From Escherichia coli O127:H6 str. E2348/69 (GTDB taxonomy: Bacteria; Pseudomonadota; Gammaproteobacteria; Enterobacterales; Enterobacteriaceae), in the NCBI RefSeq assembly GCF_000026545.1, contig NC_011601.1: a stretch of 64,000 nt of DNA. One strand, given 5' to 3'. Under the pieces are notes generated by a model. That model did not search any database and was not told where the DNA came from. It was given only the letters and a program-made list of their open reading frames with translations. Numbering within the stretch: position 1 is the stretch's first letter; each line of letters starts with the position of its first letter. The translations under genes were made by a program, and so were the position numbers. Shown here piece after piece: positions 43,897-46,313 of this stretch.

Positions 43897-43914
43897 TTCT
43901 GTCTCTTTAAAAAG

Positions 43915-43937
43915 AAACCTCCGCATTGCGGAGGTTT
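43915..43937. terminator. Bidirectional rho-independent terminator between convergent rmf and fabA
   Basis: Hairpin aaacctccgcattgcggaggttt with T-rich flank on the fabA side (ttaaaaag upstream on +) and cgccttt on the rmf side. Confidence 0.65.
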
Positions 43938-43965
43938 CGCCTTTATATACTCTGTCTGATTAAAA

Positions 43966-44484
43966 TCAGAATGCAGACGTATCCTGGAACAGACCTACTT
44001 TCAGGTCGTTGGCGGTATAGATCAAACGACCATCAACCAGCACTTCGCCATCAGCTAGGCCCATAATCAGACGACGGTTAACTATGCGTTTAAAGTGAAT
44101 ACGATAGGTCACTTTTTTCGCCGTCGGCAGCACCTGGCCTGTGAATTTCACTTCACCTACGCCCAGCGCGCGACCTTTACCTTCGCCGCCCAGCCAGCCG
44201 AGGTAGAACCCTACCAGCTGCCACATTGCGTCCAGGCCCAGGCATCCCGGCATAACCGGATCGCCGATAAAGTGGCATCCGAAGAACCACAGATCCGGAT
44301 TGATATCCAGCTCTGCTTCAACATACCCTTTGTCGAAGTTACCACCCGTTTCGGTCATTTTGACCACACGGTCCATCATCAGCATGTTTGGTGCTGGCAA
44401 TTGCGGGCCTTTAGCGCCAAACAGTTCACCGCGACCAGAGGCAAGAAGGTCTTCTTTTGTATAGGATTCGCGTTTATCTACCAT
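43966..44484 (-). CDS. fabA: 3-hydroxydecanoyl-ACP dehydratase/isomerase FabA (172 aa)
   Basis: ORF-track entry extends to 44682; ATG at 44484 (minus) gives [23 protein letters not shown]; active-site region [13 protein letters not shown]. Confidence 0.95.
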
Positions 44485-44522
44485 GTTCTCTGTAAGCCTT
44501 ATTTTATTGAAGCACGCAGGAT

Positions 44523-44558
44523 AGCTAACACGTGTACGCTGAACAAGTCCGATCAGTT
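44523..44558 (-). promoter_or_regulatory. fabA promoter operators: FabR palindrome (44523-44540) and FadR site (44541-44558)
   Basis: Minus strand reads AACTGATCGGACTTGTTC (FadR-like) directly followed by AGCGTACACGTGTTAGCT (perfect 18-bp palindrome, FabR-like), 40-75 nt upstream of the fabA ATG. Confidence 0.65.
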
Positions 44559-46313
44559 CGGAATAAACCAGTTCAGCCAACGTAATGGCCATGGAAAACG
44601 GTGACGTCCTTCCTGTTGCGATGCTTGTGCGATACGTTCCTGGATGGTTTGCATCAGCGTCGTTTGGCCTTCGCCATCCCACACCAGATTTAATAATAAC
44701 GGCAGTGCGTCAGTCACATCGTCTACTGCCCAGATGGTGAATTTGTCTTCTTCTACCGCTTTCACCAGTTCACTGTGAAGACTTAAATGGCGAACGTTAG
44801 CTGTGGGGATAATGACACCTTGTTTCCCCGTTAACTCACGTTGCTGGCAAATAGCAAAGAAGCCTTCGATTTTCTCATTTAAACCACCGACTGGCTGGGC
44901 GCGACCGAACTGATCGACTGAACCTGTGATAGCGATACTCTGATTCACCGGCACATCGGCGAGGGCGCTTATCAGGGCGCAGAGTTCAGCCATCGAGGCA
45001 CTATCGCCATCCACTTCACTGTATGACTGCTCAAATGTCAGCGATGCTGAGAAGGGGATCTGTTGCTCAAGCTGTAGTTCCGACATCAGGAACGCTTGCA
45101 TGATCATCATCCCTTTTGCATGGATATTGCCGCCAAGCTCCGCTTTGCGTTCGATGTCGGTGAATTCACCATCGCCAATATGTACAACGCAGCTAATGCG
45201 AGAAGGTTCGCCAAAAGCGCGTGGATGACCCGGAAATTCAATGACCGAAAGGGCGTTAATTTGCCCGATGCGTTCGCCTTCGGTTTCAATCAGGATTTGC
45301 TCCTGAAGGATCTCATCCTGCATGCGTTCAGCGAGGAAACCTTCGCGCCATTCACGCTGCTGTAGCATTAAGTTTAGCTGCTCGCCGGAGAAGGTGTCGC
45401 CATCACACAGGGAGGCGACCTCTTGACACTGGCGGAGGATCCACTGCGGGCTAAGCGGAAGTGTTTCTTGTTCACCAGTGTAGCGTGCTGCTTCGCGGAT
45501 AAGCACCGGCCAGGCATCCGCTCCCGGTGCAGGTAAGTGATTATGTCTGGCGGTAAATGTCACCCAGCGACACCACTGGCTTACTGACTCCGCATCGACA
45601 ATCTGCAGAGTATCTTCAAATTCGCTATAAATAGTCTGCTCTGAAAGCTCTGGTTCTATCTCCTGGAAATCAGCCAATGATTCGCGTTCGCCTACCAGAA
45701 TGACTTTCAGCTTCAATGGCATCGAAGGCACAGAGACGGGGAGAGGGCGCGACTCATCAAACGCAACCCAGTCAAAACGCTCGCGGTTAACGATATTTTT
45801 CAGCCGCATCCACAGCAGAGGTTGCGCCAGCAGTGTACGCAAAGAGATGATGAGAATACCGCCATTTGCCTGATGCACCAGACCAGGCTGCAGGGTAATA
45901 TCGCCATTAAACTGACGCAGGCAGCCAAAGAGTTGCTCTGCTTCTACCCAGTCGGCAGCGACAACTTGCGTTAAAGTCGCAAAATTATCATCTGCACTCA
46001 CTGCGTGACGTAAGCGGATGGTGTGGCCGGAAACCTCATAGTGACCGCCCACCAGTTGGCCTGCATCGCTTTGTAGCGTACGCGCGGCATCAGCAATAAG
46101 ATTCAGATACTCAGACTCTTCCGGGGCCTTCGCCAGCATAAAAGAGGAGGATGCTCGCGTATGCAGCAACTGCTCCAGCGCAAATTGCAGTCGCGGTTGA
46201 GTATCACTGAATAAAGGATCGTTTTCGTCAATCAAATGTGGCTGAGCAAATATTTCCTGATAGCTATCGGTATCAGGAACCAGGTCACGCCATGCAAGTT
46301 TCGTAATGGTCAA
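44553..46313 (-). CDS. ycbZ: Lon-like protease YcbZ (586 aa)
   Basis: 586-aa ORF; C-terminal Lon protease domain with putative Ser-Lys dyad ([17 protein letters not shown] ... GGLNEKIEG); no canonical Walker A seen in the translation. Confidence 0.9.

What the first reader, a model, noticed from the sequence alone, without database searches (positions are those of the whole stretch)
44523..44558. FadR and FabR operators of fabA abut and overlap the ycbZ stop codon
On the minus strand the sequence AACTGATCGGACTTGTTC (FadR-like) is immediately followed by the perfect palindrome AGCGTACACGTGTTAGCT (FabR-like) upstream of fabA. The FadR site (44541-44558) overlaps the last codons and stop of ycbZ (stop at 44553-44555), so the fabA control region is embedded in the end of the upstream gene.
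Basis: partly seen in the sequence, partly recalled or inferred. Interest (0 to 1): 0.2.

Follow-up and report, generated by a model that had tools for sequence, protein, structure and literature searches.

The report
Known fabA operators overlapping ycbZ stop
This is the textbook control region of the E. coli fatty-acid gene fabA: an activator (FadR) site and a repressor (FabR) site lie side by side, and the activator site happens to contain the stop codon of the upstream gene ycbZ, which is real and evolutionarily conserved but ordinary.

Summary
The window is E. coli O127:H6 E2348/69. Both quoted strings, their coordinates, the ycbZ stop (TGA, 44555..44553) and the fabA start (44484) are correct. 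The only error is "perfect palindrome": the FabR box pairs at 7 of 9 positions.

The 36 bp lie inside published EMSA probes used to show FadR and FabR binding at fabA. A weight matrix built only from other FadR sites scores the box at 16.1 bits, above all 488,382 background 17-mers. The FadR box is about -47..-31 and the FabR box about -29..-12 from the main start site. This matches the published description of FadR at -40 and FabR over the -10.

Only 6 of the 36 bp lie in ycbZ: the Asn586 codon and the stop. Published work puts further fabA promoters and a CpxR site deeper inside ycbZ.

New here:
- ycbZ-fabA synteny holds in 77 of 80 gamma-proteobacterial species.
- The stop is the TGA of the half-site CTGATC in 45 of them.
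- fabB carries the same CTGATC module in non-coding DNA, so the operator fixes the stop, not the reverse.

Side lead: in Pectobacteriaceae the FadR box appears to have moved about 14 bp upstream.

Verdict: already known, low interest.

The parts
44542..44558 (-). FadR operator of fabA (17 bp, AACTGATCGGACTTGTT). It is an activator site at about -47..-31 from the main fabA start site. Its left half-site CTGATC contains the ycbZ stop codon.
   Evidence: Sequence read. It matches 14 of 16 specified consensus positions (consensus from PMC9329746). PWM score is 16.1 bits against a background maximum of 13.1. It lies inside the published EMSA probes. It is invariant in 26 of 27 Enterobacteriaceae species.
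44523..44540 (-). FabR operator of fabA (18 bp, AGCGTACACGTGTTAGCT). It is an imperfect palindrome with 7 of 9 pairs. It fills the 17-nt spacer and the first base of the inferred -10 hexamer, at about -29..-12.
   Evidence: It is identical to the published FabR palindrome region of the probe. The FabR motif is quoted in PMC4273635. A recognisable box is present in 74 of 80 species. The published -19G>A suppressor falls inside this box.
44553..44555 (-). ycbZ stop codon TGA, at positions 4-6 of the FadR box.
   Evidence: ORF list, RefSeq annotation and direct translation. The stop sits at the same position inside CTGATC in 45 of 77 species that have ycbZ upstream of fabA.
44553..46313 (-). ycbZ coding sequence (586 aa). 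It encodes a Lon-like protein with a LonB-like AAA domain and a Lon_C proteolytic domain. The last 46 residues lie outside both Pfam domains.
43966..44484 (-). fabA coding sequence (172 aa plus stop), encoding 3-hydroxydecanoyl-ACP dehydratase/isomerase.
44541..44546 (-). Inferred -35 hexamer TTGTTC of the FadR-dependent promoter (3 of 6 to consensus). It lies inside the right half of the FadR box.
   Evidence: This is an inference from a 17-nt spacing to TATCCT and from the start site derived. The consensus promoter scan found no strong sigma-70 promoter here, which fits an activator-dependent promoter.
44518..44523 (-). Inferred -10 hexamer TATCCT. The main fabA start site lies at about 44511-44512.
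   Evidence: The start site was back-calculated from the '-432 to +27' reporter fragment and its primers, and from -19 being a G (PMC11226057). The block to -31 from the ATG is nearly invariant in Enterobacteriaceae.
44515..44558 (-). Nearly invariant 44-bp block, -74..-31 from the fabA ATG. It comprises the FadR box, the FabR box and the -10 region with its discriminator.
   Evidence: Column conservation is 0.98-1.0 across 27 Enterobacteriaceae species, against 0.62-0.91 in the adjacent ycbZ coding sequence. The 56-nt probe region is identical in 5384 of 5425 E. coli genomes.
44687..44771 (-). Published upstream fabA control elements, mapped onto the window. The acid-induced start site S3 is at about 44687, with a TATTAT -10 at 44698..44693. 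The CpxR DNase footprint is at 44771..44739. All lie inside ycbZ.
   Evidence: Positions come from PMC7083825 and were converted to window coordinates. The TATTAT hexamer was read. This stretch is poorly conserved across Enterobacteriaceae (0.62-0.76).

Best explanation
This is the well-characterised dual-control promoter of E. coli fabA.

How it works:
- Ligand-free FadR (a GntR-family dimer) binds the 17-bp box at about -47..-31. The box overlaps a weak -35 hexamer (TTGTTC), and FadR activates sigma-70 transcription. Long-chain acyl-CoA releases FadR and lowers fabA expression.
- FabR (a TetR-family repressor that senses the unsaturated to saturated acyl-thioester ratio) binds the adjoining 18-bp imperfect palindrome. 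This box fills the promoter spacer and touches the -10 hexamer. It also covers a second, FadR-independent start site.

Why the overlap exists: ycbZ and fabA are co-directional and only 68 nt apart, so the FadR box runs 6 bp into ycbZ. The last codon supplies the C of the half-site CTGATC, and the stop codon is its TGA.

The operator constrains the stop codon, not the reverse. The same CTGATCGGACTTGTTC-plus-FabR module controls fabB in purely non-coding DNA. No terminator lies between ycbZ and fabA, so ycbZ transcripts read through into fabA.

Shown by others: FadR and FabR binding and regulation. Shown here: sequence identity, geometry, statistics and conservation. Inferred: the exact -35 and -10 hexamers and the direction of constraint.
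For: - Identity: the window is 100% E. coli E2348/69, with annotated fabA and ycbZ.
- Probes: 44567..44512 equals the published fabA EMSA probe.
- Regulation in the literature: FadR activates and FabR represses fabA. FadR sits at -40 and FabR over the -10.
- Geometry: a start site at about 44511-44512 places FadR at -47..-31, FabR at -29..-12 and the stop at -44..-42.
- Statistics: PWM score of 16.1 bits against a background maximum of 13.1. The FabR pattern is expected 0.11 times per window.
- Conservation: the block -74..-31 is nearly invariant in 27 Enterobacteriaceae, while YcbZ protein identity falls to 57-95%. The probe region is identical in 5384 of 5425 E. coli genomes. The FabR box is present in 74 of 80 species, and the stop is inside CTGATC in 45 of 77.
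- fabB comparison: the same module lies in the divergent mnmC-fabB intergenic region.
- No terminator lies between ycbZ and fabA, and RNA-seq describes a ycbZ-fabA operon.
Against: - I could not read the original DNase footprint papers (Henry & Cronan 1992; Feng & Cronan 2009 and 2011; Zhu et al. 2009), because they are not held. The exact protected bases rest on probe tables and secondary statements.
- The start site is back-calculated to within about 1-2 nt.
- The -35 and -10 hexamers match only 7 of 12 consensus positions, and the consensus scan does not call a promoter here.
- No experiment has addressed whether the overlap with the stop codon has any consequence.
Confidence: 0.95

Rival explanations
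1. The overlap is itself functional. Placing the ycbZ stop inside the FadR half-site would couple the two genes. For example, RNA polymerase reading through from ycbZ promoters could displace FadR or FabR, or bound FadR or FabR could act as a roadblock that sets how much ycbZ transcription reaches fabA.
For: The stop-in-operator arrangement and the roughly 68-nt spacing are conserved in 45 of 77 species, and the stop abuts the box in Vibrio. No terminator separates the genes. Read-through ycbZ-fabA transcripts are reported.
Against: Conservation is fully explained by selection on the operator alone. fabB has the identical module with no upstream co-directional gene. Morganellaceae, Pectobacteriaceae, Pasteurellaceae and Kosakonia end ycbZ 11-90 nt earlier while keeping the FabR box, and most keep a FadR box. 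The last three YcbZ residues are variable, so nothing suggests a protein-level reason. A stop codon acts on mRNA and the operator acts on DNA, so there is no obvious mechanistic link.
Confidence: 0.08
2. The resemblance to FadR and FabR sites is chance, or the conserved block reflects a ycbZ 3' feature (coding constraint, terminator or RNA element) rather than fabA operators.
For: The FadR consensus with up to 3 mismatches is not enriched in the window (4 found, 2.3 expected). Part of the box is coding.
Against: The PWM score exceeds all 488,382 background 17-mers. Only 6 of the 44 conserved bp are coding, and conservation drops sharply inside ycbZ. No terminator and no Rfam family were found. 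The same module lies upstream of fabB. Published EMSA used this exact sequence.
Confidence: 0.01

Closest known systems
E. coli fabA promoter with its FadR activator site and FabR repressor site (Henry & Cronan 1992; Zhang et al. 2002; Feng & Cronan 2009 and 2011, as cited)
   Same: It is this very locus. The sequence is identical to the published probes. The FadR box is at -40 and the FabR box lies over the spacer and -10.
   Different: Nothing differs in substance. In the papers I could search, none states that the FadR box contains the ycbZ stop codon. Only 3 papers mention both ycbZ and fabA. The fact follows from the database coordinates.
E. coli fabB promoter FadR-FabR module
   Same: It has the same composite: CTGATCGGACTTGTTC immediately followed by an 18-bp FabR palindrome (GGCGTACAAGTGTACGCT), then GCTAT.
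   Different: It lies in the divergent mnmC-fabB intergenic region and overlaps no coding sequence or stop codon. Its FabR box differs from the fabA box at 4 positions.
Shewanella and Vibrio fabA FadR-FabR sites
   Same: The FadR box abuts an 18-bp FabR palindrome in the Shewanella probe TAGCTGATCGGAGTTGTTT+AGCTTACACGTGTTCGCT and in Vibrio loci L075-L081. A ycbZ homologue lies upstream in Vibrio.
   Different: In three of the four Vibrio loci the ycbZ stop (TAG) sits immediately 5' of the box rather than inside it. The box's in-frame TGA lies one codon after that TAG stop.
Tandem FadR sites of the fadL and fadD promoters
   Same: These are precedents for two FadR boxes in one promoter. They are relevant to the second, upstream FadR-like palindrome seen in Yersiniaceae and Erwiniaceae.
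   Different: Those are repressor sites over or downstream of the promoter. E. coli fabA has only one good box, and its upstream register scores -1.9 bits.

Membership tests
FadR (GntR-family) operator | A 17-bp pseudo-palindrome matching aaCTGGTCnGACC(T/A)Gtt. | tested here: met
   It matches 14 of 16 specified positions. It scores 16.1 bits with a PWM trained on five other E. coli FadR sites, above every background 17-mer. It deviates at CTGATC, as does the fabB site.
FadR (GntR-family) operator | Located in the promoter of a fad or fab regulon gene, at an activating position (-40) for fabA and fabB. | tested here: met
   The box spans about -47..-31 from the start site derived. [quoted passage not shown]
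FadR (GntR-family) operator | Direct binding by FadR that is released by long-chain acyl-CoA. | not testable with these tools
   Published EMSA used a probe identical to window 44567..44512 (PMC4537474; PMC4259882). The original footprint papers are not held.
FabR (TetR-family) operator | An 18-bp inverted repeat with core ACAnnTGT flanked by AGC and GCT. | tested here: met
   AGCGTACACGTGTTAGCT has 7 of 9 pairs and is therefore imperfect. The core motif ACAnnTGTnnnnT is given in PMC4804515. The box is conserved in 74 of 80 species.
FabR (TetR-family) operator | Position overlapping the -10 region and spacer, immediately downstream of the FadR box, as in fabB. | tested here: met
   The box spans about -29..-12. 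It has the same arrangement as fabB.
FabR (TetR-family) operator | Direct FabR binding, enhanced by unsaturated acyl thioesters. | not testable with these tools
   This rests on the literature only.
Sigma-70 promoter | -35 and -10 hexamers with 16-18 nt spacing. | tested here: inconclusive
   The consensus scan finds none with at least 9 of 12 matches. The best reading is TTGTTC, a 17-nt spacer and TATCCT (7 of 12). That is weak, as expected for an activator-dependent promoter.
Intrinsic terminator between ycbZ and fabA | A GC-rich hairpin followed by a T-run in 44485..44552. | tested here: not met
   None was found there. The only strong terminators in the scanned region are at 43914-43938, downstream of fabA and rmf.

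The most novel reading that the evidence does not exclude
The C-terminal tail of YcbZ may be partly a translation of fabA regulatory DNA, and the FadR operator may have changed register during enterobacterial evolution.

Two FadR-type boxes start with AAC-TGG or AAC-TGA, in frame and 15 bp apart. The downstream one is the E. coli box and carries the stop. The upstream one, AACTGGTTyAACCAG, encodes N-W-F-N-Q.

In all 6 Pectobacteriaceae the E. coli-register box has decayed. Only the upstream palindrome remains FadR-like, and in 5 of the 6 it is non-coding because ycbZ stops earlier. That would move FadR from about -39 to about -53 relative to the start site.

Several Erwiniaceae have TGA changed to TAA at the same position together with a degraded box. 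If this reading is right, operator turnover and protein-tail evolution are mechanically linked at this locus.
Probability: 0.3. Interest if true: 0.3.

Novelty: already known. Interest (0 to 1): 0.1.

Why it matters
It matters little as a discovery. fabA regulation by FadR and FabR is a textbook system, and these exact bases are the published operators.

The analysis adds three minor points:
- It confirms that the first-stage reader can recognise real operators from raw sequence.
- It documents that the stop-in-operator arrangement is ancient and that the operator fixes the stop codon as TGA.
- It serves as a reminder that the 3' end of ycbZ is regulatory DNA for an essential gene. Deletions or insertions in ycbZ can therefore have polar or regulatory effects on fabA, so 'ycbZ phenotypes' need that control.

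Tried and rejected
- I tried to read the primary footprint and promoter papers (PMC2787350, PMC30389, PMC2785586, PMC99677, PMC4072462, PMC2612455). None is held. I relied instead on probe tables and secondary statements.
- I tested whether the non-consensus A in CTGATC is a compromise forced by the ycbZ stop. I rejected this because fabB and Shewanella fabA have the same CTGATC without that constraint.
- I looked for a terminator or a known RNA element between ycbZ and fabA. None was found.
- The simple sigma-70 scan does not find the fabA promoter. I placed the hexamers from the literature-derived start site instead.
- The FadR IUPAC consensus with 3 mismatches is uninformative, with 4 hits against 2.3 expected. 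I replaced it with a PWM and an empirical background.
- My first automated stop-codon calls ran through in-frame stops inside BLAST HSPs (L018 and L071). This was corrected.

Full report
**Observation.** The window is 100% identical to E. coli O127:H6 E2348/69. RefSeq annotates, in order, rmf (+), fabA (-, 44484..43966), ycbZ (-, 46313..44553) and matP (+). On the minus strand, 44558..44541 reads AACTGATCGGACTTGTTC and 44540..44523 reads AGCGTACACGTGTTAGCT, with no gap between them. ycbZ ends ...WFIPN-TGA, with the stop at 44555..44553. The fabA ATG is at 44484, and 68 nt separate the stop from the ATG.

One descriptor is wrong. The 18-mer is not a perfect palindrome, because only 7 of 9 pairs are complementary (82%). 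Only the FadR box touches the stop codon. It covers one sense codon (Asn586) and the TGA, so 6 of the 36 bp lie in the ycbZ ORF.

**Is it more than chance?** I built a weight matrix from five repressor-type E. coli FadR sites: fadL (two sites), fadD (two sites) and fadBA. These came from the probe table of PMC4259882, and the fabA and fabB sites were left out of the training set. The window box scores 16.1 bits, higher than any of 488,382 background 17-mers (maximum 13.1). The FabR 18-mer pattern is expected 0.11 times per window. The crude IUPAC consensus is uninformative at 3 mismatches. At 2 mismatches it gives only this site.

**What it is.** Window 44567..44512 (minus strand) is letter-for-letter the fabA probe used in published FadR and FabR gel shifts (PMC4537474; PMC4259882; located). 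The literature describes FadR as activator and FabR as repressor of fabA. [quoted passage not shown]

I back-calculated the annotated start site from the '-432 to +27' reporter fragment of PMC11226057, its primer sequences, and the fact that -19 is a G. This places it at about 44511-44512. FadR is then at -47..-31, FabR at -29..-12 and the ycbZ stop at -44..-42.

The best hexamers are TTGTTC (44546..44541, inside the FadR box) and TATCCT (44523..44518), separated by a 17-nt spacer. The FabR box covers that spacer plus the first base of the -10. These hexamers match only 7 of 12 consensus positions, and the consensus scan does not call them. That fits an activator-dependent promoter. The hexamer assignment is my inference.

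**Wider control region.** Published RACE and footprinting place a third, acid-induced fabA start site 203 bp upstream of the ATG. They also place a CpxR footprint at -287..-255 (PMC7083825). In window coordinates these are about 44687 and 44771..44739, both inside ycbZ. A TATTAT hexamer sits at the right distance from 44687. [quoted passage not shown] I found no terminator between ycbZ and fabA and no Rfam family.

**Conservation.** The 56-nt probe region is identical in 5384 of 5425 complete E. coli genomes. One variant carries A>G at FabR box position 1, which makes it fabB-like.

A scan of one genome per species returned 80 fabA loci from Enterobacterales, Pasteurellaceae, Vibrionaceae and Orbaceae. 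A ycbZ homologue lies directly upstream on the same strand in 77 of them. Across 27 Enterobacteriaceae species, the block -74..-31 from the ATG has column identity 0.98-1.0. The adjacent ycbZ coding sequence shows 0.62-0.91, and YcbZ protein identity falls to 57-95%. A FabR box is recognisable in 74 of 80 loci.

The stop is the TGA inside CTGATC in 45 of 77 species. In three of the four Vibrio loci a TAG abuts the 5' edge of the box. In Morganellaceae, Pectobacteriaceae, Pasteurellaceae and Kosakonia, ycbZ ends earlier. The last three YcbZ residues vary (IPN, NHN, SPN, NHG, NQS and others), and they lie beyond the Pfam Lon_C domain.

**Direction of constraint.** The fabB promoter carries the same module: CTGATCGGACTTGTTC, then GGCGTACAAGTGTACGCT, then AT. 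It lies in the divergent mnmC-fabB intergenic region and overlaps no gene. Shewanella fabA also has CTGATC. The non-consensus A that creates TGA is therefore a property of the activator-type FadR site, not a concession to ycbZ. The operator fixes the stop codon and the third base of the last codon. The overlap is most simply a by-product of tight co-directional gene spacing.

**Side lead.** In all 6 Pectobacteriaceae the E. coli-register FadR box has decayed (PWM score -0.1 to 4.1 bits). A palindrome AACTGGTTnnnCCAGA about 14 nt upstream scores 8.3-10.2 bits (background p about 6e-5 to 3e-4). It is non-coding in 5 of the 6, because ycbZ stops earlier in those species. It shares CTGGT-N3-ACCAGA with the strong fadBA operator.

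In Erwiniaceae and Yersiniaceae the same bases encode the YcbZ motif N-W-F-N-Q. Several Erwiniaceae have TGA changed to TAA at the E. coli stop position together with a weakened box. In Pasteurella bettyae the same palindrome abuts the FabR box in intergenic DNA. This suggests the operator changed register, but it is untested. In E. coli itself the upstream register scores -1.9 bits, so it is not a site in this window.

**Verdict.** This is the known fabA FadR/FabR control region, so it is not novel and is of low interest. In the papers I could search I found no explicit statement of the conserved stop-in-operator detail or of the possible box relocation in Pectobacteriaceae. Both are minor additions.

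Noticed in passing
L028, L030, L034, L035, L047, L058 (about -88..-72 from the fabA ATG); also Erwiniaceae and Yersiniaceae loci: A FadR-like palindrome AACTGGTTnnnCCAGA lies 14-15 nt upstream of the E. coli-type box. In all 6 Pectobacteriaceae it is the only FadR-like site, and in 5 of them it is non-coding. Elsewhere the same bases encode the YcbZ C-terminal motif N-W-F-N-Q. It may be a relocated or second FadR operator.
   Followed up: partly
L032, L042, L043, L053, L055, L056, L059, L061, L068 (Erwiniaceae): The ycbZ stop is TAA, not TGA, at or within 1 nt of the same position. This turns the FadR half-site CTGATC into TTAATC, CTAATC or TTAACC. The box is usually degraded while the FabR box is kept. 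FadR control of fabA may be weakened or lost in these lineages.
   Followed up: partly
window 43914-43938: An 11-bp-stem GC-rich hairpin (GAAACCTCCGC...GCGGAGGTTTC) has T-runs on both strands. It lies between the convergent genes rmf and fabA and looks like a bidirectional intrinsic terminator.
   Followed up: no
L083 (E. coli TUM17543), locus 1098-1903: An IS5-family element is inserted in the 3' part of ycbZ, about 210 nt upstream of the fabA ATG. The FadR and FabR operators and the S3 region stay next to fabA, but the published CpxR footprint region is separated from them.
   Followed up: partly
window 44739-44771 and about 44687: The published CpxR footprint and the acid-induced fabA start site S3 map inside ycbZ. 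This stretch is among the least conserved across Enterobacteriaceae (column identity 0.62-0.76). The CpxR input may therefore be specific to the Escherichia lineage.
   Followed up: partly
L084 (E. coli AB_24_S34), equivalent to window 44540: A natural A>G change at position 1 of the FabR box gives GGCGTACACG..., the same first bases as the fabB FabR box. 41 of 5425 E. coli genomes differ somewhere in the 56-nt probe region.
   Followed up: partly
window 44488-44496 (-) and L082 about 1570-1580: fabA and fabB share the 9-mer CTTACAGAG in their 5' UTRs, just upstream of or overlapping the ribosome-binding site. It is not invariant across Enterobacteriaceae, so it may be chance or related to the Shine-Dalgarno sequence.
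   Followed up: no
window 43966-44682 (-): The fabA reading frame stays open for 198 nt upstream of the real ATG, so the ORF finder lists a 238-aa GTG-started ORF that runs across the operators into ycbZ. This is an ORF-calling artefact, not an alternative fabA start.
   Followed up: no
L018 (Kosakonia cowanii); L039, L050, L066, L071 (Morganellaceae): ycbZ ends 11-22 nt before the FadR box. Kosakonia has TAG in place of the Trp codon of NWF. The FadR and FabR boxes are still intact, which shows the operators do not need the overlap.
   Followed up: partly
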